From Diplonema japonicum (Eukaryota > Protista > Euglenozoa: Diplonemea): 64,000 nt of DNA. The stretch is from the NCBI GenBank assembly GCA_964019335.1, contig OZ025650.1:496001-560000 (forward strand), in the 5' to 3' direction. The position numbers and the translations under genes were made by a program. Below are positions 1 to 58,703 of the stretch, in pieces. The first letter of the stretch is position 1. Every line of letters starts with the position of its first letter. Below the pieces are notes generated by a model that had not been told where the DNA came from, made no database searches, and saw only the letters and a list, made by a program, of their open reading frames with translations.

Positions 1-6
1 AAGAGC

Positions 7-99
7 TCAGTGGTCAGGACAAATTGCAGTTACTGTCGTCAGGAACGAGTGTTTCCGACTGAGAGATCAGGTATTTGATAACTTACAGGTTGTCATCAG
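7..99 (-). ncRNA. box C/D snoRNA family H
   Basis: Minus strand: TGATGA...internal CTGA...CTGA with terminal stem AGAGC/GCTCT. A near-identical copy at 55378-55470 is conserved only between the boxes. Confidence 0.8.
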
Positions 100-330
100 T
101 GCTCTGTAGTTTCCTTTGTTTGATGTCTCAAAATGATTTTCGAGTATCTTGTCGGGCAAGGAGGTGCAATAAGAATAATAAAAAAAAGGGGGTTGACGAA
201 ACGGGGGGTATTTTTTTTTTTCTTATTTTTTTTTTTGTTCTTTGATTCTCACTCAGAATCTTGGGGTTGGGAGCCAGTTATTGGGGATTGCAATCGTTGG
301 GTGAGGGAGTCATAACGATCAACCTACTTC

Positions 331-1812
331 CTACTTCTTCTTGGCGATGACCTTCTCGGTGGTCTTGGTGACCTTGCCAAGCATGACGACACCGTTGCCC
401 TCCATGATGGCGACACGGGAGAGACCCTCGCAGTTCTTGAAGGTGTCGACGACAAGGGGCTGCTGGGGGGCGAAGACGACCTCAGCCATCTCGTTGGCCT
501 TCAGGCAGTGGGGCTCCTCAGCCTTCTTACCGCCGGTCTCCTTACCCATCTTCCACACCAGCTGGGTCATCCTCACGGCGGACCTACCGGTCCTCACGAA
601 GCACACGGGGGTGTACCCGACCTTGAGCTCACCGGGGTGGTCCAGGATCTGCACCTGCGCGTTGAAGGTACCGGCCTCCTTCAGGGAGGCGTCCTTCTTG
701 TAGATCATCACGTCACCGGTCCTGGGCATGTTGTCCTTGTTGAGACCCTTCACGTTCAACCCAACGTTGTCACCAGCCTTGGCGTCCTCGCACCTCTTGT
801 GGTGCATCTCGCAGGTGAAGACCTTACCCACGCACGCGTTGGCGGCGGTGTGGGTGGGGAGGAAGAGCACTTCCTCACCGGGCTTCACGATACCCTGCTC
901 CACACGACCGGTAATAACATCACCGACACCCTTGATCTGTATTTATTTGTGTGTGCGTGCGTGTGCGTGTGTTGTTTATTTTATTTCTATTTTGTTGTTT
1001 CATACCTTGTACACACCCGAGACGGGCATCCTCATGGGAGCGTCGTTCTTCCTCTCAGGCATCCTCACCATCTTGTCAAGAGCGTCAACAAGGGTGTCGA
1101 TGTGGAGCTTCTCGTCAGCACCGACAAGAACATCCTGACCCTTCCACCAGTCCATCTTGGTGGACTTCTTCAGAAGGTTGTCACCGATCCAACCCGAGAT
1201 GGGGAGGACGGGGACGTTCTTCTCAACGAAGTCCTTCTTCCAACCGGTCTTCACCAACATGCTCTTCATCTCCTCCTTGATCTCGTTGTACCTCTCCTCC
1301 TTGTACTGGGCGACGTCGCAGTCCATCTTGTTGATACCAACGATGAGCTGCTTCACACCGAGAAGGTTGATGAGACGGGCGTGCTGCCTGGTCTGCCCCT
1401 GGATCTCACCAGCCTTGTGGTTACCCCTCGCGATGGCGGACACGAAGTTACCGTCAGCGGGGATCATCAGAAGGGCCACGTCGGCCTGCGAGGCTCCGGT
1501 GATCATGTTCTTGATGAAATCCCTGTGCCCGGGGGCGTCGATCACGGTGTAGTGCCACTTCTCCGTGAAGAACTCCTTGGTGGTGCAGGCGATCGTCACA
1601 CCACGCTCACGCTCCTCCTTCTGCCTGTCCATGTAGAAGGCGAAGGCGAAGGACTGCTTACCGAGACGCTCAGCCTCAGCCTTCAACTTCTCCATCTCAC
1701 GCTCGGGGATTCCACCAAGCTCGAAGAGGAGACGCCCGGTGGTCGTCGACTTCCCGGAGTCGACGTGACCGCAGATCACGATCGACAAATGCTGCTTACC
1801 GTCGGTGGCCAT
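331..1812 (-). CDS. EFL: elongation factor-like GTPase EFL, copy 1 (exons 1006-1812 and 331-936; 470 aa)
   Basis: [14 protein letters not shown] and NKMD motifs plus EFL-type signatures ([33 protein letters not shown]). Removing the 69-nt GT-AG intron 937-1005 restores YK|IKGVGDV. Confidence 0.95.
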
Positions 1813-1829
1813 GGTTTATGAGTTGATAG

Positions 1830-1885
1830 CTGTCGGGGGGTGGGTGGATGGATGGATGGATGGGTGGGTGGGTGGGTGGGTGGTG
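1830..1885 (-). promoter_or_regulatory. putative SL trans-splice acceptor of EFL with (CCCA/TCCA)n tract
   Basis: Minus strand (CCAC/CCAT)n CCCCCGACAG ends 17 nt before the ATG; same arrangement in all three EFL copies. Confidence 0.55.
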
Positions 1886-1954
1886 ATGGTTTTCTTTCTT
1901 TTTTTTTTTTCCCCCTCCCTTCTCACTCCAAAAAATTTACTGCAAATAATTTCT

Positions 1955-2033
1955 TCAGCGTTTATCAAATATCATCCCCAGTTTGCCTGCAAAGCAGTCA
2001 AATAAGCTACTCTTATCGTGTTTGGATCATCAC
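1955..2033 (-). ncRNA. box C/D snoRNA family A
   Basis: GTGATGA...GATGAT...CTGA, 79 nt; three copies; target not recognised. Confidence 0.75.
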
Positions 2034-2091
2034 AAGAATTCAAAAGCAAGCCAAAAGAAAACCAAGGCAAAGAGAGTCACCCATCAATGAA

Positions 2092-2161
2092 AGTTCTAGG
2101 ACAAGAAATGATGAGCTGAAGTAGGTAGCGAAGCACAGTCACAACTCGAGGCATTGTCCAG
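2092..2161 (-). ncRNA. single-hairpin AGA-box pseudouridylation guide, family 1 isoform a
   Basis: Stem GGACAA/TTGTCC, pocket TGCCTC + ATCATTTC, then AGA. The pocket fits the conserved LSU motif AAUGAU-UA-GAGG. Confidence 0.85.
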
Positions 2162-2235
2162 TGAAAACTATTCCGCAAAGAAAAACAGACGGAAAAAGGG
2201 GTTGGAGGTACAGACATAAACAACAATACAAAGAA

Positions 2236-2316
2236 TCAGATAAGAAACCGAAATACAAAGATTATAACTCACGAAAGTATTCATGTGAAACACGGAACAT
2301 TGTACTTTTTCATCAT
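2236..2316 (-). ncRNA. box C/D snoRNA family B (LSU UGAAACACGGA guide)
   Basis: ATGATGA...TCCGTGTTTCAC-ATGA (D')...CTGA; the guide is antisense to conserved LSU CUUGAAACACGGACC. Confidence 0.85.
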
Positions 2317-2347
2317 CTCTTTGAGGGGTGGCATTGTGTCTCCTGTC

Positions 2348-2414
2348 TGATCTTGGAACAGGGAGTATACTGTTGGCAGCATGGGTGACCCCGCCACAGA
2401 GCTGTTTGTTCCCT
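2348..2414 (-). ncRNA. single-hairpin AGA-box guide, family 2
   Basis: Stem GGAACA/TGTTCC + A-AGA. Pocket CAGCT + ACTCCC fits LSU GGGAGU-UU-GGCUG. Four copies in the window. Confidence 0.8.
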
Positions 2415-2479
2415 CTTGGAGGGGAAAGCCTTCAAAAGGAAAAAGCAACGAAAGAAGCCCTAAAAAAGCTGTAAAAGGT

Positions 2480-2570
2480 TCAGCGGTGTCCTAAGGGTAA
2501 TTAAGTTGCCATTTCTCGGGCATCGCACCTTGTGCTCCGACTGGGGCGGCATCATAGTGATTGTCATCAT
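2480..2570 (-). ncRNA. box C/D snoRNA family C (dual LSU guide)
   Basis: ATGATGA...CTGA; guides TGCCGCCCCAG and CCTTAGGACACC are antisense to neighbouring conserved LSU motifs CUGGGGCGGCA and GGUGUCCUAAGG. Four copies. Confidence 0.9.
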
Positions 2571-2642
2571 CTAGTAGAGGAAAGAAACAGTCAAAGGAAA
2601 CAGTCCCCCTTCCCGCACCTGGGAAAACACAGGTTTGTGTGG

Positions 2643-2729
2643 TCAGGTAAAACCCGAAAGTCAACTTCACACAGCAAAAAAAATAATGCATCAGGTCTTG
2701 AAACACATTGTGGAAAGTAATGTCATCAC
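2643..2729 (-). ncRNA. box C/D snoRNA family D
   Basis: GTGATGA...GTGTTTCAAGAC-CTGA...CTTTCGGGTTTTAC-CTGA; antisense to LSU GUCUUGAAACAC and ACCCGAAAG. Confidence 0.9.
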
Positions 2730-2771
2730 TTCAACTCCTTCTCATTCATGTTAAATGTTTCCCTCATGCAA

Positions 2772-2842
2772 ACCTCTCGAACAAGAAATGATGAGCTTGA
2801 GGTAGGTAGCGAGGCGCAGTCACAGCTCGAGGCATTGTCCTG
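2772..2842 (-). ncRNA. single-hairpin AGA-box guide, family 1 isoform b
   Basis: Same pocket as 2092-2161 with diverged but pairing-compatible stems; AGA at 2775-2777. Confidence 0.85.
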
Positions 2843-2890
2843 AAGACTTTCTTCCTGTGTGTCTTGCAGACACAAAGTAAAAGGAAGGTT

Positions 2891-2957
2891 GTGTCTTGCC
2901 ATGAAGTTGCCCTTGCAGTGCGAGAAGGGGCGTCCTGCAGGTTTGATCGTCATGGCG
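2891..2957 (-). ncRNA. single-hairpin AGA-box guide, family 3
   Basis: Stem GCCATGA/TCATGGC + A-AGA, upper stem TGCAG/CTGCA; target not recognised. Confidence 0.75.
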
Positions 2958-3008
2958 GAAAGTGAATGGAAGTGTACGAAACAAACGGAACGGGGCAACT
3001 AGGGCCAC

Positions 3009-3080
3009 AGCTCTTGCCCGAGTCATTGACCTGCAGTGGCGATGTCGAAGACTGCGCCCAGAGGCTGGTTACCAAGGGCG
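3009..3080 (-). ncRNA. single-hairpin AGA-box guide, family 4
   Basis: Stem GCCC/GGGC + A-AGA, upper stems CCT/AGG and GCAGT/ACTGC. Identity with the copy at 54679-54750 ends at the hairpin base. Confidence 0.65.
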
Positions 3081-3116
3081 GGTAAGAAACAATAACTTCT
3101 GCGTCTTCCTGGTTGC

Positions 3117-3206
3117 TCAGAAGTTGTGAAAGCTTTATCAAGAGTGTTGTATTCAGCCGGAGGCCTCGTGGCCCCGTCGTATAGTACCGATCCTGTTTCT
3201 CATCAT
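3117..3206 (-). ncRNA. box C/D snoRNA family E
   Basis: ATGATGA...CTGA (D')...TTGATA...CTGA; three copies with differing flanks. Confidence 0.8.
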
Positions 3207-3294
3207 CGCAGGTGGCAGGGGGGGAGAGGGAAAGAAAGCTGGATCCATTTCCGGGGGATGAGGAAAAACTATGAACAACAACAACAAACAAGAG

Positions 3295-3385
3295 TCAGCC
3301 TCCTCGACCTATTCTTTGGGTGCTCATCTCCCAGGGGTTTCCTGGAATGCACAGAGATTCCTTGTGTAAAAACAAAAATCATCAT
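3295..3385 (-). ncRNA. box C/D snoRNA family F (LSU CUCGACCUAUUCU guide)
   Basis: ATGATGA...AGATGA...AGAATAGGTCGAGGAGG-CTGA; antisense to the conserved LSU motif YUCRACCUAUUCU. Three copies. Confidence 0.85.
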
Positions 3386-3465
3386 TTGTTTGCTCTCCTG
3401 CTGTAGTTCGTGTAGTTTGTTCTTCTTTTCTTTTTTTCTTCCCTCTCCTCTTCCTTTTCAACTAT

Positions 3466-3640
3466 TTATGTAGGACCACACCAAGGCACACAAAAGACAC
3501 ATGGAAGGAAGTGAAGGTGTGCTGGTTAAATGTGGTTCTGAGCTTTGCTGTTGCGTGCGTTGAAAAGGGAGGGCGGGATCTTTTGCTTCTCCCCAACAGA
3601 GTGTGCGGAGACCCATCCCTCCCAAACCTGTCGCCACGCG
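3466..3640 (-). ncRNA. two-hairpin box H/ACA RNA
   Basis: Hairpin 1, H box ACAGCA (3546-3551), hairpin 2, then ACA (3469-3471). The pocket tops lie 15 and 14 nt from their boxes. Compensatory G-C to A-T change versus the copy at 55156-55330. Confidence 0.8.
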
Positions 3641-3696
3641 TCCGGGAGTGCTGCTGCTGGTGGTAGCGGTGGCGCTTCGGAAGCAAAGTGGTCAAC

Positions 3697-3763
3697 TCAT
3701 CTTGGAACAGGGAGTATACTGTTGGCAGCATGGGTGACCCCGCCACAGAGCTGTTTGTTCCCT
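3697..3763 (-). ncRNA. AGA-box guide family 2, additional copy
   Basis: Identical to 2348-2414 over the hairpin only. Confidence 0.8.
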
Positions 3764-3811
3764 CGCTCTTCTTTTTCTTTTTCTTTCTCTTCTCTCACCA
3801 TTGATCAGAAG

Positions 3812-3904
3812 TCAGGTAGGGTGTTCTTGGAATCGTTGCTCAACAAGTGATTGTTTGAAGATCTTCAGATTGGCTAGGGCGGTAGAATTCCAGGTTGTCA
3901 TCAC
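3812..3904 (-). ncRNA. box C/D snoRNA family G
   Basis: GAAG-TGATGA...CCGCCCTAGCCAAT-CTGA...CTGA-CTTC with terminal stem. The D' guide pairs LSU UUGGCUGGGGCGG with one G-U. Confidence 0.85.
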
Positions 3905-3935
3905 TTCAATAGGAGCTTTGGTGACAAAATAAAAG

Positions 3936-4015
3936 TCAGCTAGGGGCGAAAGAACAAAGTCACATTGTCTAGTAATTCAACAGAAATGATTTGTTAAAAT
4001 TGTTCAAATCATCTT
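3936..4015 (-). ncRNA. box C/D snoRNA family I
   Basis: Variant C box AAGATGA; D' guide AATCATTTCTG-TTGA; D guide TCTTTCGCCCCTAG-CTGA is antisense to conserved LSU UAGGGGCGAAAGA. Confidence 0.8.
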
Positions 4016-4204
4016 GTCCCCCCCCCCCCCCCCCCCCCTTCTCGCAATCAAGTAAAAATAATATAAATTAGAATAGGCTAAACCAAGGATAGTAAATCGA
4101 TAGGAGTAACGTTAAGAAAAAAAGGGGGGAGAGGGGGGAAGGGGGATTAAAACATAATGGGAACAGCTGCAGATTAGAGAAATTAAAAGGAAATAAAAAA
4201 AAAT

Positions 4205-4360
4205 TTGCGCTCACCGCATTAGTGAGATACCTCGTCCTGTCCCCCGAGTGCTCGACCCATAATAAAAGCTAACCTTTGTGCCATCTGGCCCTTTAAGGCT
4301 TCGTAGGGCTAACTGTATGTCGTCAACCTATTCCAGTTTAGCTACAAAGAATGGGTCTCC
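4205..4360. mobile_element. short structured element, possibly a non-autonomous Helentron-like element (HINE)
   Basis: Inverted repeat GACCCAT..AGCTAA / TTAGCT..ATGGGTC plus terminal hairpin CTCAC/GTGAG next to an A/T run. Confidence 0.3.
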
Positions 4361-4788
4361 AAGAAACCAAGAAAAAGAAGGGGAGAAAGGGGATGGGGGG
4401 GGGGGGGGGGTAGAAGAAACCAATTTCATTTCTATTCACGTTGCTTTGATCGTGCCACCTTTCCCTATTCCGTCTTCCTCCTATTTCTTTCCTGTTAAAG
4501 GAAAGAAAGAAGAGGGAAATAAAATATAGAAAAAAAAAAGGAGAACACGACACCAAAAGAGAAGACGTGCATCGTTTTAGCCTTTTGCTGAACGCGTAAA
4601 AACAAGCTCAACTTTTTTTTTATGGTACATTTTTTTTTTTTTTTTTTTTTCTGGCTTAGTGTTTCCTCGTGTCTCTCCATTTTCTATATCTTTCCATTCT
4701 GTGCTTGTTAAAAAAAAAAAAAGAAAAACTCCTCACAACGAAAAACAAAAACCAGCAGATTTTTTTATGTTGCCACGTCCCCCGTTAA

Positions 4789-5949
4789 CTAAAATACAAC
4801 GCCCCATGTCCCCGACACAGGGTGGTAGGTGAGGTGGGTGAGGGAGCAATTCTTCACAGTGTGCTGGAAGGGTTTGTGGCCGAGGATGGACCTCACGAGG
4901 GCGGAGATGACACCACCATGTGTGACGACCGCTATGTGCTGCCCTAAGAAGGAGGCGTCCTTGAGGGAACACAGGGCACGAAGCGCCACGTCTCGGGCAG
5001 ATTCACCATTTGGCCATCTCTTTGTGTGGTTAAGAGACCGCATGAAGGTGCGCACTGCAGGGTCAGTTGACATGCAACCCTCGAAGCTGCCTAAACTAAT
5101 CTCCATCAAACGCTCGTCCACCACATGCTCACCAGGCAGCTCCTCTTCAGGGAACATGAGAGATGCAGTGTCCATAGCCCGCTGCAGCGGTGACACAAGA
5201 ACAGCATCTATCCCGTCAGGAAGGACGAGGCCTGCCCGTGCCTCCGACGCTTGCCGCATCCCGCGATCGGTAAGAACTGTGTCCTTCTGCCCTTGCAGCC
5301 GCCCGATGACGTTCCAGTTGGACTCGCCATGCCGCACCACGTAGTAGTGCACGAGACCCTTGTCGGGGACCTTCCGACCTCCTTTCTTCCGCGACGCCGA
5401 CAGCACCGCCTCAACAGGGCACCACAGGTACTTTCCATCGCCAAACATTATTTTCATCGTCCCGTCCTCTGCGCATACTTCCTGGACTGTTCCCTTCTTC
5501 CCTAGATATGAGAGGACTGCTTGGTTCCATTCCAAAGTGTCGTGTGAGGTGTACGTGTTGTGGACGAGCGTCTCGTCGGCTTCAAGGCTGACCCACTCCC
5601 CTACCGTGTATGTTGTCTTTTGGAACCCTGTGTTCGATGACAGCGGGGAGTAAGGGTTCAGGTGTTGTTGCTGCTGCTGCTGCCGCTGTCTTTTCCGTTC
5701 CTTCTTGCTCGCTGAGGAGTCACGCGAGCTGTTGCTGTCCCAGCTGCCCGACGAGGCGCTGAAGGAAGGGTTGCGGTCGCTCAGGGTGAGGCACTGAGGT
5801 GTCTCTTGTTTTTCACAGAGCGGTTTCACGTACCCTTCACCGCTGCTGCTCCCGCCGCATTCTTCATCAGCGTACTCATTCCACTGCAGAAATGTGATCC
5901 GTCCCTTGTTGTTCCCTTTGGTCTTTTTTTGCCTCACACCAGGGGTCAT
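4789..5949 (-). CDS. histidine phosphatase (phosphoglycerate mutase family) with Mind-bomb-like SH3 repeat
   Basis: RHGES, SPLQRA, LMEISLG, GES and VTHGG motifs; the upstream VGEWV...W...LGKKGTV...W.P segment resembles the Mib SH3 repeat. ATG at 5949 follows a CAG. Confidence 0.85.
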   Translation of the reverse strand: MTPGVRQKKTKGNNKGRITFLQWNEYADEECGGSSSGEGYVKPLCEKQETPQCLTLSDRNPSFSASSGSWDSNSSRDSSASKKERKRQRQQQQQQHLNPYSPLSSNTGFQKTTYTVGEWVSLEADETLVHNTYTSHDTLEWNQAVLSYLGKKGTVQEVCAEDGTMKIMFGDGKYLWCPVEAVLSASRKKGGRKVPDKGLVHYYVVRHGESNWNVIGRLQGQKDTVLTDRGMRQASEARAGLVLPDGIDAVLVSPLQRAMDTASLMFPEEELPGEHVVDERLMEISLGSFEGCMSTDPAVRTFMRSLNHTKRWPNGESARDVALRALCSLKDASFLGQHIAVVTHGGVISALVRSILGHKPFQHTVKNCSLTHLTYHPVSGTWGVVF

Positions 5950-51988: not shown

Positions 51989-53470
51989 CTACTTCTTCTT
52001 GGCGATGACCTTCTCGGTGGTCTTGGTGACCTTGCCAAGCATGACGACACCGTTGCCCTCCATGATGGCGACACGGGAGAGACCCTCGCAGTTCTTGAAG
52101 GTGTCGACGACAAGGGGCTGCTGGGGGGCGAAGACGACCTCAGCCATCTCGTTGGCCTTCAGGCAGTGGGGCTCCTCAGCCTTCTTACCGCCGGTCTCCT
52201 TACCCATCTTCCACACCAGCTGGGTCATCCTCACGGCGGACCTACCGGTCCTCACGAAGCACACGGGGGTGTACCCGACCTTGAGCTCACCGGGGTGGTC
52301 CAGGATCTGCACCTGCGCGTTGAAGGTACCGGCCTCCTTCAGGGAGGCGTCCTTCTTGTAGATCATCACGTCACCGGTCCTGGGCATGTTGTCCTTGTTG
52401 AGACCCTTCACGTTCAACCCAACGTTGTCACCAGCCTTGGCGTCCTCGCACCTCTTGTGGTGCATCTCGCAGGTGAAGACCTTACCCACGCACGCGTTGG
52501 CGGCGGTGTGGGTGGGGAGGAAGAGCACTTCCTCACCGGGCTTCACGATACCCTGCTCCACACGACCGGTAATAACATCACCGACACCCTTGATCTGTAT
52601 TTATTTGTGTGTGCGTGCGTGTGCGTGTGTTGTTTATTTTATTTCTATTTTGTTGTTTCATACCTTGTACACACCCGAGACGGGCATCCTCATGGGAGCG
52701 TCGTTCTTCCTCTCAGGCATCCTCACCATCTTGTCAAGAGCGTCAACAAGGGTGTCGATGTGGAGCTTCTCGTCAGCACCGACAAGAACATCCTGACCCT
52801 TCCACCAGTCCATCTTGGTGGACTTCTTCAGAAGGTTGTCACCGATCCAACCCGAGATGGGGAGGACGGGGACGTTCTTCTCAACGAAGTCCTTCTTCCA
52901 ACCGGTCTTCACCAACATGCTCTTCATCTCCTCCTTGATCTCGTTGTACCTCTCCTCCTTGTACTGGGCGACGTCGCAGTCCATCTTGTTGATACCAACG
53001 ATGAGCTGCTTCACACCGAGAAGGTTGATGAGACGGGCGTGCTGCCTGGTCTGCCCCTGGATCTCACCAGCCTTGTGGTTACCCCTCGCGATGGCGGACA
53101 CGAAGTTACCGTCAGCGGGGATCATCAGAAGGGCCACGTCGGCCTGCGAGGCTCCGGTGATCATGTTCTTGATGAAATCCCTGTGCCCGGGGGCGTCGAT
53201 CACGGTGTAGTGCCACTTCTCCGTGAAGAACTCCTTGGTGGTGCAGGCGATCGTCACACCACGCTCACGCTCCTCCTTCTGCCTGTCCATGTAGAAGGCG
53301 AAGGCGAAGGACTGCTTACCGAGACGCTCAGCCTCAGCCTTCAACTTCTCCATCTCACGCTCGGGGATTCCACCAAGCTCGAAGAGGAGACGCCCGGTGG
53401 TCGTCGACTTCCCGGAGTCGACGTGACCGCAGATCACGATCGACAAATGCTGCTTACCGTCGGTGGCCAT
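51989..53470 (-). CDS. EFL: EFL copy 2 (intron 52595-52663)
   Basis: Translation identical to copy 1; same intron. Confidence 0.95.
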
Positions 53471-54749
53471 GGTTTATGAGTTGATAGCTGTCGGGGGGTG
53501 GGTGGATGGATGGATGGATGGATGGATGGATGGGTGGGTGGGTGGGTGGGTGGTGATGGTTTTCTTTCTTTTTTTTTTTTCCCCCTCCCTTCTCACTCCA
53601 AAAAATTTACTGCAAATAATTTCTTCAGCGTTTATCAAATATCATCCCCAGTTTGCCTGCAAAGCAGTCAAATAAGCTACTCTTATCGTGTTTGGATCAT
53701 CACAAGAATTCAAAAGCAAGCCAAAAGAAAACCAAGGCAAAGAGAGTCACCCATCAATGAAAGTTCTAGGACAAGAAATGATGAGCTGAAGTAGGTAGCG
53801 AAGCACAGTCACAACTCGAGGCATTGTCCAGTGAAAACTATTCCGCAAAGAAAAACAGACGGAAAAAGGGGTTGGAGGTACAGACATAAACAACAATACA
53901 AAGAATCAGATAAGAAACCGAAATACAAAGATTATAACTCACGAAAGTATTCATGTGAAACACGGAACATTGTACTTTTTCATCATCTCTTTGAGGGGTG
54001 GCATTGTGTCTCCTGTCTGATCTTGGAACAGGGAGTATACTGTTGGCAGCATGGGTGACCCCGCCACAGAGCTGTTTGTTCCCTCTTGGAGGGGAAAGCC
54101 TTCAAAAGGAAAAAGCAACGAAAGAAGCCCTAAAAAAGCTGTAAAAGGTTCAGCGGTGTCCTAAGGGTAATTAAGTTGCCATTTCTCGGGCATCGCACCT
54201 TGTGCTCCGACTGGGGCGGCATCATAGTGATTGTCATCATCTAGTAGAGGAAAGAAACAGTCAAAGGAAACAGTCCCCCTTCCCGCACCTGGGAAAACAC
54301 AGGTTTGTGTGGTCAGGTAAAACCCGAAAGTCAACTTCACACAGCAAAAAAAATAATGCATCAGGTCTTGAAACACATTGTGGAAAGTAATGTCATCACT
54401 TCAACTCCTTCTCATTCATGTTAAATGTTTCCCTCATGCAAACCTCTCGAACAAGAAATGATGAGCTTGAGGTAGGTAGCGAGGCGCAGTCACAGCTCGA
54501 GGCATTGTCCTGAAGACTTTCTTCCTGTGTGTCTTGCAGACACAAAGTAAAAGGAAGGTTGTGTCTTGCCATGAAGTTGCCCTTGCAGTGCGAGAAGGGG
54601 CGTCCTGCAGGTTTGATCGTCATGGCGGAAAGTGAATGGAAGTGTACGAAACAAACTGAACGGGGCAACTAGGGCCACAGTTCTTGCCCGAGTCATTGAC
54701 CTGCAGTGGCGATGTCGAAGACTGCGCCCAGAGGCTGGTTACCAAGGGC
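51989..54749 (-). repeat. direct repeat of about 2.75 kb (EFL + proximal snoRNAs), matching 331-3080
   Basis: Near-perfect identity apart from 12 extra nt of TGGA microsatellite and two visible substitutions near 54657-54681. Confidence 0.9.
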
Positions 54750-56022
54750 TGCCAAAAAAAAAGTAGGAACAAGCAATGCAGGAATGAAACCTTTTTGTGC
54801 TTTCAAAAAGTTACAAAACTTGCTCAGAAGTTGTGAAAGCTTTATCAAGAGTGTTGTATTCAGCCAGAGGCCTCGTGGCCCCGTCGTATAGTACCGATCC
54901 TGTTTCTCATCATCGCAGGGTGGCTGCGGAAGTCAGGAGGGAGAGGGAAAGAAAAACCTGATAAACTATGAACAACAAACAAGAGTCAGCCTCCTCGACC
55001 TATTCTTTGGGTGCTCATCTCCCAGGGGTTTCCCGGGATGCACAGAGATTCCTTGTGTAAAAACAAAAATCATCATTTGTTTGCTTTCCTGTTGCAGTTC
55101 GAGAACTTTTTTATTTCTTTTATGCTTTTCTTTTTTTTTCTTCTCATTCAACTATTTATGTAGGACCACACCAAGGCACACAAAAGACACATGGAAGGAA
55201 GTGAAGGTGTGCTGGTTAAATGTGGTTCTGAGCTTTGCTGTTGCGTGCGTTGAAAAGGGAGGGCGGGATCTTTTACTTCTCCCCAACAGAGTGTGTGGAG
55301 ACCCATCCCTCCCAAACCTGTCGTCACGCGTAGTACCTCTGACTGGAGAAGAGTTGGTCTGCCGCGGTGCACTTTGCTCAGTGGTCAGGACAAATTGCAG
55401 TTACTGTCGTCAGGAACGAGTGTTTCCGACTGAGAGATCAGGTATTTGATAACTTACAGGTTGTCATCACTGCGTTGCGTTCATTGCATAGATTAAGTAT
55501 GAATGGTTCGTCTGCCACGTCCGCCACCGGAGGAGGTGGTTGGTTTCGCCAGAGGCGTAACTACACAACTGATGCGCGCAGCACGTTGGAAGATGCAGCA
55601 CCACAATTGCAAATAAGAAGGCTGTTATTGTTCCCCTGCAAAAAGTTCAGCGGTGTCCTAAGGGTAATTAAGTTGCCATTTCTCGGGCATCGCATCTTGT
55701 GCTCCGACTGGGGCGGCATCATAGTGATTGTCATCATCTTTCCGTCGGGGTATGGAAGGAGGTAGGATTCTTTTTTTTTATTGCTCAGAAGTTGTGAAAG
55801 CTTTATCAAGAGTGTTGTATTCAGCCGGAGGCCTCGTGGCCCCGTCGTATAGTACCGATCCTGTTTTTCATCATCGCAGGGTGGCTGCGGAAGTCAGGGA
55901 GAAGAGAAAAAACAAAAAAGAAAAACTTAAAAGAGTCAGCCTCCTCGACCTATTCTATATATGCTCATCTCCCAGGGGTTTCCTGGGATGCACAGAGATT
56001 CCTTGTGTGGAATAATCATCAT
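53625..56022 (-). ncRNA. snoRNA cluster 2: C/D-A 53625-53703, AGA-1a 53762-53831, C/D-B 53906-53986, AGA-2 54018-54084, C/D-C 54150-54240, C/D-D 54313-54399, AGA-1b 54442-54512, AGA-3 54561-54627, AGA-4 54679-54750, C/D-E 54824-54913, C/D-F 54986-55076, H/ACA 55156-55330, C/D-H 55378-55470, C/D-C 55647-55737, C/D-E 55785-55874, C/D-F 55936-56022
   Basis: Box-to-box sequence matches to the cluster at 1955-4015 and to 7-99. Confidence 0.85.
55156..55330 (-). ncRNA. two-hairpin box H/ACA RNA, copy 2
   Basis: Matches 3466-3640 with a compensatory pair change (55275/55296). Confidence 0.8.
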
Positions 56023-56338
56023 TTACTTGTTTCAAAATGCATTTCATCAACTAGTGGTCACTGGTTATCAACTAGTGGTATCACTTGAAGGCGCAGTTGC
56101 CTAGCAAGCTCCCTCAGTCACTTGATCAACATCAGATCACGCGTAGAGTTGTTGTCTGTATGAAATGAGTGGAGAAGCAAGTTGCTCAGTCAATAAAGAT
56201 GATAAACTAGGGAGGAGGTTGGTGGGTGGGGTAACTTCGGGTTAAAATCAGTTTGTAACATCTTGGTAGATGATTACATTTCCAGGAGCGTAATAAGAAC
56301 AGAGGGTACAATATACAAGATTTGCTATTGCAAGGTTT

Positions 56339-57820
56339 CTACTTCTTCTTGGCGATGACCTTCTCGGTGGTCTTGGTGACCTTGCCAAGCATGACGACAC
56401 CGTTGCCCTCCATGATGGCGACACGGGAGAGACCCTCGCAGTTCTTGAAGGTGTCGACGACAAGGGGCTGCTGGGGGGCGAAGACGACCTCAGCCATCTC
56501 GTTGGCCTTCAGGCAGTGGGGCTCCTCAGCCTTCTTACCGCCGGTCTCCTTACCCATCTTCCACACCAGCTGGGTCATCCTCACGGCGGACCTACCGGTC
56601 CTCACGAAGCACACGGGGGTGTACCCGACCTTGAGCTCACCGGGGTGGTCCAGGATCTGCACCTGCGCGTTGAAGGTACCGGCCTCCTTCAGGGAGGCGT
56701 CCTTCTTGTAGATCATCACGTCACCGGTCCTGGGCATGTTGTCCTTGTTGAGACCCTTCACGTTCAACCCAACGTTGTCACCAGCCTTGGCGTCCTCGCA
56801 CCTCTTGTGGTGCATCTCGCAGGTGAAGACCTTACCCACGCACGCGTTGGCGGCGGTGTGGGTGGGGAGGAAGAGCACTTCCTCACCGGGCTTCACGATA
56901 CCCTGCTCCACACGACCGGTAATAACATCACCGACACCCTTGATCTGTATTTATTTGTGTGTGCGTGCGTGTGCGTGTGTTGTTTATTTTATTTCTATTT
57001 TGTTGTTTCATACCTTGTACACACCCGAGACGGGCATCCTCATGGGAGCGTCGTTCTTCCTCTCAGGCATCCTCACCATCTTGTCAAGAGCGTCAACAAG
57101 GGTGTCGATGTGGAGCTTCTCGTCAGCACCGACAAGAACATCCTGACCCTTCCACCAGTCCATCTTGGTGGACTTCTTCAGAAGGTTGTCACCGATCCAA
57201 CCCGAGATGGGGAGGACGGGGACGTTCTTCTCAACGAAGTCCTTCTTCCAACCGGTCTTCACCAACATGCTCTTCATCTCCTCCTTGATCTCGTTGTACC
57301 TCTCCTCCTTGTACTGGGCGACGTCGCAGTCCATCTTGTTGATACCAACGATGAGCTGCTTCACACCGAGAAGGTTGATGAGACGGGCGTGCTGCCTGGT
57401 CTGCCCCTGGATCTCACCAGCCTTGTGGTTACCCCTCGCGATGGCGGACACGAAGTTACCGTCAGCGGGGATCATCAGAAGGGCCACGTCGGCCTGCGAG
57501 GCTCCGGTGATCATGTTCTTGATGAAATCCCTGTGCCCGGGGGCGTCGATCACGGTGTAGTGCCACTTCTCCGTGAAGAACTCCTTGGTGGTGCAGGCGA
57601 TCGTCACACCACGCTCACGCTCCTCCTTCTGCCTGTCCATGTAGAAGGCGAAGGCGAAGGACTGCTTACCGAGACGCTCAGCCTCAGCCTTCAACTTCTC
57701 CATCTCACGCTCGGGGATTCCACCAAGCTCGAAGAGGAGACGCCCGGTGGTCGTCGACTTCCCGGAGTCGACGTGACCGCAGATCACGATCGACAAATGC
57801 TGCTTACCGTCGGTGGCCAT
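56339..57820 (-). CDS. EFL: EFL copy 3 (intron 56945-57013)
   Basis: Translation identical to copies 1 and 2. Confidence 0.95.
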
Positions 57821-57974
57821 GGTTTATGAGTTGATAGCTGTCGGGGGGTGGGTGGATGGATGGATGGATGGATGGATGGATGGGTGGGTGGGTGGGTGGG
57901 TGGTGATGGTTTTCTTTCTTTTTTTTTTTTCCCCCTCCCTTCTCACTCCAAAAAATTTACTGCAAATAATTTCT

Positions 57975-58597
57975 TCAGCGTTTATCAAATATCATCCCCA
58001 GTTTGCCTGCAAAGCAGTCAAATAAGCTACTCTTATCGTGTTTGGATCATCACAAGAATTCAAAAGCAAGCCAAAAGAAAACCAAGGCAAAGAGAGTCAC
58101 CCATCAATGAAAGTTCTAGGACAAGAAATGATGAGCTGAAGTAGGTAGCGAAGCACAGTCACAACTCGAGGCATTGTCCAGTGAAAACTATTCCGCAAAG
58201 AAAAACAGACGGAAAAAGGGGGGTGGAGGTACAGACATAAACAAACCGAAATACAAAGATTATAACTCACGAAAGTATTCATGTGAAACACGGAACATTG
58301 TACTTTCTCATCATCTCTTTGAGGAGTGGCTTTTCTTCTTTTTTTTCCACATGTTGTCTCCTGTCCCGACCCTTTTTGGAATCTTGGAACAGGGAGTATA
58401 CTGTTGGCAGCATGGGTGACCCCGCCACAGAGCTGTTTGTTCCCTCTTGGAGGGGAAAGCCTTCAAAAAGCAACGAAAAGCCCATCGTAAAAAGCTGTAA
58501 AAAGGTTCAGCGGTGTCCTAAGGGTAATTAAGTTGCCATTTCTCGGGCATCGCACCTTGTGCTCCGACTGGGGCGGCATCATAGTGATTGTCATCAT
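57975..58597 (-). ncRNA. snoRNA cluster 3: C/D-A 57975-58053, AGA-1a 58112-58181, truncated C/D-B, AGA-2 58379-58445, C/D-C 58507-58597
   Basis: Matches the proximal members of clusters 1 and 2. Confidence 0.85.
58243..58314 (-). pseudogene. C/D-B snoRNA copy lacking its D box
   Basis: A 23-nt deletion relative to 2222-2244 removes CTGA. Confidence 0.65.
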
Positions 58598-58703
58598 CTA
58601 AGGAGCGATCCAGAAGAGTTCTTCCCCAAAAACGTCTCTTGTCTGTATGAGCAGGTAAAAGTAAAATAGAACTACTATAAAACTGTTAAGGTGTTTAGAA
58701 AGG

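What the first reader, a model, noticed from the sequence alone, without database searches (positions are those of the whole stretch)
3466..3640. A canonical two-hairpin H/ACA RNA among single-hairpin AGA guides
Seen (minus strand): lower stem GCGTG(G/A)CG / CGCACGC, pocket ACAGGTTT + TTTTCAA, upper stem GGGAGGG/CCCTCCC and H box ACAGCA. Hairpin 2 follows with AGAACCACA/TGTGGTCCT, pocket TTTAACCA + CTTGG and terminal ACA. The two copies differ by a compensatory G-C to A-T pair (3606/3585 vs 55296/55275). Known: trypanosomatid and Euglena pseudouridylation guides are essentially single-hairpin AGA RNAs, the snR30 homologue being the exception. The snR30 m1/m2 motifs (AUAUUCCUA, AAACCAU) are not visible and I could not match either pocket convincingly to rRNA. 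Inference: a retained ancestral form, a processing/chaperone RNA, or a guide for a non-rRNA substrate.
Basis: partly seen in the sequence, partly recalled or inferred. Interest (0 to 1): 0.8.

Follow-up and report, generated by a model that had tools for sequence, protein, structure and literature searches.

The report
Two-hairpin guide RNA in a diplonemid
In a marine single-celled diplonemid, a cluster of small guide-RNA genes holds, beside the one-hairpin guides typical of its trypanosome and Euglena relatives, a twice-copied sequence predicted to fold into the two-hairpin form used by most other eukaryotes; it likely marks ribosomal RNA, but its target and its expression as one RNA are untested.

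Summary
The structure is real. Window 3640-3466 (minus strand) has two stem-pocket-stem hairpins, an H box 15 nt and an ACA box 14 nt below the pocket tops, and a 13-nt hinge. A scanner tuned to it found this layout in 6 of 25,533 shuffles. It sits in a snoRNA cluster beside an EFL gene; the host is a diplonemid, not a trypanosomatid. A second copy is 172/175 identical with different upstream neighbours, and a contig from another run joins it to a third neighbour, so both hairpins move as one cassette. Neighbouring single-hairpin AGA guides are real; one has a strong LSU rRNA target. The claimed compensatory pair is not supported: pair probability 0.09, and a third allele changes one side only. 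It is not snR30, since m1 and m2 are missing from their places. No target was found above chance, but only non-euglenozoan rRNA could be scanned, and the same scan also missed two of three AGA neighbours. No homologue from another species and no RNA ends were obtained. Best reading: one canonical H/ACA pseudouridylation guide for rRNA (0.5). It would be the first two-hairpin modification guide I could find reported in Euglenozoa.

The parts
3466..3640 (-). Predicted two-hairpin box H/ACA RNA, copy A (175 nt; ends predicted, not mapped)
3553..3639 (-). Hairpin 1: 7-bp lower stem with bulge at 3634, pocket, 7-bp upper stem, variable apical part holding 3606 and 3585
3624..3631 (-). Pocket 1, 5' strand (ACAGGUUU)
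   Evidence: 0.84 unpaired
3560..3566 (-). Pocket 1, 3' strand (UUUUCAA); 15 nt from pocket top to H box
   Evidence: 0.82 unpaired
3546..3551 (-). H box ACAGCA within the 13-nt hinge 3552-3540
   Evidence: hinge 13/13 identical between copies; H box 0.72 unpaired
3472..3539 (-). Hairpin 2: 8-of-9 lower stem, partly self-pairing pocket (3530-3523 + 3485-3481), 6-bp upper stem
3469..3471 (-). ACA box, 14 nt from pocket-2 top
55156..55330 (-). Copy B, 172/175 identical, different upstream neighbour (a C/D RNA)
3697..3756 (-). Upstream neighbour of copy A: single-hairpin AGA-box RNA (further copies near 2350-2410, 54020-54080, 58380-58440); target not found
2092..2159 (-). Single-hairpin AGA-box guide with predicted LSU rRNA target (paralogue at 2774-2838); positive control
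   Evidence: score 13.5; 0 of 60 shuffled pockets as good
3292..3385 (-). Downstream neighbour: box C/D RNA
332..1812 (-). EFL (EF-1alpha-like) gene with one GT-AG intron at about 1003-937, closing the cluster; identifies the host as a diplonemid

Best explanation
The 175-nt minus-strand stretch has two hairpins followed by an H box and an ACA box at standard spacing, and is likely one canonical H/ACA RNA that would be cut from the cluster's polycistronic transcript, load a Cbf5 core complex on each hairpin and guide pseudouridine formation in rRNA, predicted mainly through the open first pocket. Shown by sequence and calls: the layout, the box spacing, the place in a C/D + AGA snoRNA cluster, and the movement of both hairpins as one cassette among three neighbourhoods. 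Inferred: expression as one molecule, Cbf5 binding, and an rRNA target. The target probably lies in a region where diplonemid rRNA differs from the eukaryotes I could scan. Hairpin 2 may be a weak guide or mainly structural, because its pocket half-closes on itself.
For: Layout rare in shuffles (6 of 25,533) and in the window. Stems stable and pocket 1 open. Spacings of 15 and 14 nt lie inside the 14-16 nt rule (PMC2613932 passages). Both boxes read ACA, whereas all trypanosomatid single-hairpin guides known in 2008 end in AGA (same paper) and the single hairpins of this cluster end in AGA. The identical block 3641-3457 starts 1 nt before the first stem. The hinge is 13/13 identical while four spacers or flanks are 37/73, 46/67, 43/80 and 26/72 identical. 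Run X13 joins 3459 to 2414, a third neighbourhood. The cluster serves rRNA: one AGA neighbour scores 13.5 on a conserved LSU uridine, and two C/D guides have 11- and 12-nt perfect rRNA complements in 6 and 7 of 14 loci. Pocket-1 leads: (a) 18S helix-17 loop, 6+6 bp in one of the two discoban-type loci (6 of 100 shuffled pockets as good within those two loci); (b) the T. brucei SSU stretch UGAAA-UUA-GAACC, 5+5 bp with three unpaired bases, read by eye from a supplement.
Against: No conserved target above chance: for pocket 1, 18 of 40 shuffled pockets score as well, and for pocket 2, 13 of 40. The helix-17 lead is matched by 47 of 100 shuffles over all 25 loci. T. brucei has no SSU pseudouridine between positions 131 and 505 or between 505 and 662, so neither lead has a trypanosome counterpart. 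No Rfam H/ACA family matches. No homologue from a distinct species, so box conservation is untested. Folding energy is not unusual. A 305-nt block of tightly packed AGA hairpins nearby is also 303/305 identical including its linkers, so an identical hinge does not prove one molecule.
Confidence: 0.5

Rival explanations
1. Two separate single-hairpin guides, each with an ACA box in place of AGA, lie 3-6 nt apart and are processed into RNAs of about 95 and 75 nt.
For: The H box begins with ACA, so hairpin 1 could end there. Hairpins elsewhere in the cluster are packed with almost no spacer and co-conserved (block 3079-2775).
Against: It needs two independent AGA-to-ACA departures side by side. 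Hairpin 1 plus tail (95 nt) exceeds the 57-91 nt range of trypanosomatid guides. The halves stay together in all three neighbourhoods seen.
Confidence: 0.15
2. One two-hairpin H/ACA RNA whose target is a spliceosomal RNA (U2 or another snRNA) or SL RNA, as for scaRNAs. Diplonemids cis-splice most genes and may have kept such a guide.
For: No rRNA target above chance. D. papillatum has GT-AG introns, a full U1-U6 set and an opisthokont-like U1 (PMC10161547 and PMC11613528 passages).
Against: No UGAG (CAB box, consensus recalled) anywhere in the RNA. The neighbours with identifiable targets aim at rRNA. No diplonemid snRNA sequence was available, so this is untested rather than supported.
Confidence: 0.15
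3. A non-modifying or dual-function H/ACA RNA that pairs with pre-rRNA as a chaperone or processing guide, in the manner of snR10 or snR30.
For: Two-hairpin ACA-type size. Pocket 2 half-closed. AACCA (5 of the 6 m2 bases) at 3527 and UUCC at 3510/3506 resemble m2 and m1. In one unrelated locus (L072) both pocket-1 arms match 6 nt apart at about the LSU 5' boundary.
Against: The m2-like piece is on the 5' strand and the m1-like piece in the apical loop, not opposite each other at the base of the loop as snR30 requires (PMC2664660 passages). AAACCA and AUUCC are absent. ES6 complements score 7.5-10.5 at scattered positions in 7 loci, with no common site. Both pockets keep modification-type spacing.
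Confidence: 0.13
4. Chance hairpins in a spacer of the cluster, copied along with real snoRNAs.
For: Unremarkable folding z-score; no family match; no expression data; the scanner also fires in one coding region.
Against: Sharp conservation edges matching the predicted ends, while real spacers diverge; layout in 6 of 25,533 shuffles.
Confidence: 0.07

Closest known systems
Canonical eukaryotic box H/ACA snoRNAs (hairpin-hinge-hairpin-tail; PMC2613932 passages, PMC6049503 abstract)
   Same: Two pocketed hairpins, ANANNA hinge, terminal ACA, 14-15 nt spacing.
   Different: No family match in Rfam 15; target unknown; found in a euglenozoan, in a cluster otherwise of C/D and single-hairpin AGA type.
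Trypanosomatid and Euglena single-hairpin H/ACA-like (AGA) guides (PMC2613932, PMC3273796 passages)
   Same: Mixed C/D + pseudouridylation-guide clusters; each hairpin has the same stem-pocket-stem build; the neighbours here are of this kind.
   Different: Two hairpins, an H box, ACA rather than AGA, 175 nt rather than 57-91 nt.
snR30/U17, including T. brucei TB11Cs2C3 (PMC2664660, PMC6411936 passages)
   Same: A larger H/ACA-class RNA; the known exception in trypanosomes.
   Different: [quoted passage not shown]

Membership tests
canonical box H/ACA RNA | hairpin-hinge-hairpin-tail fold with internal pockets | tested here: met
   predicted fold
canonical box H/ACA RNA | H box ANANNA in a single-stranded hinge | tested here: met
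   ACAGCA at 3551-3546, 0.72 unpaired
canonical box H/ACA RNA | ACA three nucleotides from the 3' end | tested here: inconclusive
   ACA at 3471-3469; identity between copies runs on to 3457; RNA end not mapped
canonical box H/ACA RNA | 14-16 nt from pocket top to box | tested here: met
   15 and 14 nt
canonical box H/ACA RNA | pocket pairs with a target around U-N (at least 8 bp, PMC6049503 abstract) | tested here: inconclusive
   no site above shuffled pockets in non-euglenozoan rRNA; the organism's own rRNA and snRNAs were not available
canonical box H/ACA RNA | boxes and stems conserved across species | tested here: inconclusive
   only two copies and one near-identical allele; no covariation
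canonical box H/ACA RNA | expressed as one RNA bound to Cbf5, Nop10, Nhp2 and Gar1 | not testable with these tools
   all runs holding the stretch are contigs
euglenozoan single-hairpin AGA guide | terminal box AGA | tested here: not met
   both boxes read ACA
euglenozoan single-hairpin AGA guide | single hairpin of 57-91 nt | tested here: inconclusive
   halves would be about 95 and 75 nt if processed apart; processing unknown
snR30/U17 | m1 and m2 on opposite strands of the proximal loop of the 3' hairpin | tested here: not met
   no Rfam match
H/ACA scaRNA | CAB box (UGAG, recalled) in an apical loop | tested here: not met
   no UGAG in the RNA
H/ACA scaRNA | snRNA target | not testable with these tools
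   no diplonemid snRNA sequence obtained

The most novel reading that the evidence does not exclude
Diplonemids run both guide designs side by side, with box identity tied to architecture (ACA with two hairpins, AGA with one). The two-hairpin form was present in the euglenozoan ancestor, and the archaea-like single hairpins of trypanosomes and Euglena are a secondary simplification, which would undercut their use as a primitive character for rooting eukaryotes.
Probability: 0.3. Interest if true: 0.72.

Novelty: new member of a known kind. Interest (0 to 1): 0.5.

Why it matters
Single-hairpin AGA guides are treated as the euglenozoan rule (PMC2613932, PMC3273796). The simplicity of trypanosomatid and euglenoid snoRNAs has been cited as support for a eukaryotic root between Euglenozoa and the rest (PMC2837639 passage). 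A two-hairpin ACA guide in the third euglenozoan lineage, in the same cluster as AGA guides, would show that one Cbf5 machinery handles both designs. It would also make the ancestral-versus-derived question testable by surveying diplonemid genomes. One RNA cannot by itself separate retention from a recent fusion of two guides.

Tried and rejected
Rfam: no gathering-score hit in the window. At E up to 10, none of the 42 weak matches in 1-5000 overlaps the RNA, and on 3445-3660 there are four chance-level matches, none H/ACA. No whole genome is held. No tRNA in the window.

Obtaining diplonemid rRNA failed. A recalled diplonemid 18S primer was not found in the paper library. In viral contigs it gave 27 loci, which I took to be chance matches without examining them. 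A universal V4 primer found no viral contig. The one metagenome scan returned a fungal-type 18S fragment and a bacterial chance match. The genome-collection scan gave 45 eukaryotic rDNA loci, of about 470 estimated, none recognisably euglenozoan; two look heterolobosean by my recall. The plasmid collection gave 2 records. The EukRef supplement holds trees, not sequences. The organism's own rRNA letters at the candidate sites could not be read, so every target lead stays open.

Mis-specified runs: one search used wrong coordinates for pocket 1's 3' strand, and searches used wrong pocket coordinates for the AGA controls. These were redone (pocket 1; controls). Searches used 25 of the 45 loci (longer, less redundant ones; searches added one extra LSU segment). 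Searches used 14.

Weak leads not accepted. Pocket 2: the universal 18S helix-18 uridine (4+4 bp, 22 of 25 loci; the pocket's best conserved score is matched by 13 of 40 shuffles), and one-sided matches of its 5' strand at two other 18S sites. Pocket 1: a conserved 18S site with 4+7 bp but 5 G-U pairs, and one-sided 7-9 nt LSU matches.

Low contig depth over the RNA in three runs guessed to be RNA says nothing about expression. Earlier-findings look-ups found nothing on this locus.

Supplements that may bear on the target and were not seen: D. papillatum Additional file 1, section 4 (no hits among the 7 files searched); pocket drawings of PMC4855143 (pictures); the T. brucei SSU cell beyond about 400 nt (cut); the Euglena ribosome supplement. 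Two Euglena guide-RNA papers were not held, so the Euglena rule rests on secondary statements.

Full report
Host and setting. The window encodes an EFL-type elongation factor three times, each with a GT-AG intron. Its first 270 aa are 100% identical to a EukProt transcriptome protein and 91% identical to Diplonema papillatum, the best named hit; beyond the top 14 hits identity falls to 83% or less. The host is therefore a diplonemid. Upstream of each EFL gene on the minus strand lies a snoRNA cluster. Between 3904 and 1953 there are seven C/D-box elements and several hairpins ending in AGA. Parts of the cluster recur at about 53600-56100 and 57950-58620 in changed order.

Observation. Stem pair probabilities are 0.88-1.0. 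Pocket 1 is open (0.82-0.84 unpaired), pocket 2 half closes (0.42-0.61), and forcing both open costs 3.5 kcal/mol. Pocket top to box is 15 nt and 14 nt, inside the 14-16 nt rule quoted in PMC2613932 (passages). A scanner for this layout, with thresholds set to what the RNA meets, fired on 6 of 25,533 dinucleotide shuffles. In the window it fired on both copies and on two overlapping places in a coding ORF. Folding energy alone is ordinary (z -1.14). The compensatory pair does not stand: its probability is 0.09 in both copies, and the contig of run X13 changes 3606 but not 3585 (record 24, four differences in all).

One unit or two. Copies A and B are 172/175 identical; identity starts at 3641 and ends at 3457. 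Upstream, A has an AGA hairpin and B a C/D RNA, and in run X13 position 3459 is joined to 2414, another AGA hairpin. The hinge is 13/13 identical, against 37/73, 46/67, 43/80 and 26/72 for four flanks or spacers. Both boxes read ACA, while the cluster's single hairpins end in AGA, as do all trypanosomatid guides reported in PMC2613932. This favours one two-hairpin RNA. Against: the block 3079-2775 of closely packed AGA hairpins is also 303/305 identical with its linkers, so tight co-conservation is not proof. All runs that hold the stretch are contigs and cannot show RNA ends.

Family tests. Rfam gives nothing. snR30 needs m1 and m2 on opposite strands at the base of the 3' hairpin's loop, and T. 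brucei keeps an invariant m2 (PMC2664660 passages). Here AAACCA and AUUCC are absent; AACCA lies on the 5' strand and UUCC in the apical loop. Best complements to the ES6 region fall at different places in 7 loci. There is no UGAG.

Target search. No diplonemid rRNA or snRNA could be obtained, so pockets were scanned against eukaryotic rDNA found as contamination in prokaryote assemblies (45 loci; 25 of them used for the nulls). The method can work: the AGA guide at 2159-2092 pairs 7+8 bp around a conserved LSU uridine, score 13.5, with 0 of 60 shuffled pockets as good. It failed for the two other AGA hairpins tried (30 of 60 and 17 of 60 shuffles as good), so a miss is weak evidence. For the finding, the best conserved sites are at chance level (18 of 40 and 13 of 40).

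Leads for pocket 1. The best single site, tied with two others at score 11.0, is the 18S helix-17 loop of locus L050 (6+6 bp, 2 G-U). L050 is one of two loci I take to be heterolobosean (label recalled). It is matched by 47 of 100 shuffles over all 25 loci and by 6 of 100 within those two loci. From recall, this register equals a human pseudouridine, and a diplonemid-specific primer matches the pocket's 5' strand for 9 nt there but not its 3' strand; neither recollection could be verified. A second lead is the T. brucei SSU stretch UGAAA-UUA-GAACC (supplement 3 of PMC10662448, first about 400 nt visible), which pairs 5+5 bp with three unpaired bases. PMC6049503 (abstract and section headings) gives 8 bp as the minimum and says pockets can fit more than two unpaired bases. 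T. brucei's own map has no pseudouridine at either place (supplement 4; placement by my counting). Pocket 2 reaches only the 8-bp minimum, at a universal helix-18 uridine.

Mechanism. Most likely (0.5) one canonical H/ACA RNA, processed from the polycistronic cluster as in trypanosomes (PMC3273796 passage), binding two core complexes and guiding rRNA pseudouridylation chiefly by pocket 1. Layout, spacing, context and cassette behaviour are shown. Expression, protein binding and target are inferred. Rivals: two ACA single hairpins (0.15), an snRNA or SL RNA guide (0.15), a processing or chaperone RNA (0.13), chance (0.07).

Novelty. The architecture is the textbook eukaryotic one; its place is what is new. 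Six library searches (listings and abstract starts) showed no survey of diplonemid snoRNAs and no two-hairpin modification guide in Euglenozoa. The D. papillatum genome paper has no 'small nucleolar' or 'pseudourid' in its main text. The library lacks most subscription papers, including two Euglena guide-RNA studies, so absence from print is not proven. Other papers opened: PMC6411936, PMC11613528, PMC2837639 (passages); PMC4855143 (supplement table 2); PMC6805782, PMC8209450, PMC6492006 (passages; only a primer was taken from the first); PMC7678783 (supplement search); PMC7672448 (supplement unreadable).

Verdict. A real, well-formed candidate and a new member of a known kind in an unexpected lineage. 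Interest 0.5.

Noticed in passing
window 3079-2775 (copy 54749-54445), minus strand: A 305-nt block, 303/305 identical between copies, of four closely packed hairpins: one at 3079-3013 ending in AGA, whose pocket fits a conserved 18S uridine weakly (3+6 bp, chance level); a 117-nt branched hairpin ending in AGA without guide spacing; a short hairpin; and an AGA guide. The first three may be one longer H/ACA-like RNA. No Rfam match and no snR30 m1/m2 arrangement seen.
   Followed up: partly
window 2159-2092 and 2838-2774, minus strand: Paralogous single-hairpin AGA guides; the one at 2159-2092 has a strong predicted LSU rRNA target (7+8 bp in 2 loci, same core in 6), and the two differ in stems and apical part.
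   Followed up: yes
window 55640-55480, minus strand: A structured stretch of about 160 nt between two C/D RNAs, present only in this copy of the cluster; no Rfam match at E up to 5.
   Followed up: partly
window 2570-2478 (also 54240, 55737, 58597), minus strand: C/D RNA with a weak Rfam match to snR67 (21-23 bits, below the gathering score).
   Followed up: no
window 3206-3114, minus strand: C/D RNA with a stretch right after box C that by recall resembles a long complement to the 3' part of 18S rRNA, away from the usual D/D' guide position; not confirmed by the perfect-match scan.
   Followed up: partly
window 332-1812, 51990-53470, 56340-57820: Three near-identical EFL genes, each directly downstream of a snoRNA cluster copy whose members are shuffled in order; contigs of other runs show further arrangements.
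   Followed up: partly
L075 (NZ_CP050525.1) and loci L030-L074: A 1.76-kb 'plasmid' record that matches eukaryotic 18S rDNA, and an estimated 470 stretches of eukaryotic 18S rDNA in the prokaryote genome collection: likely assembly contamination.
   Followed up: no
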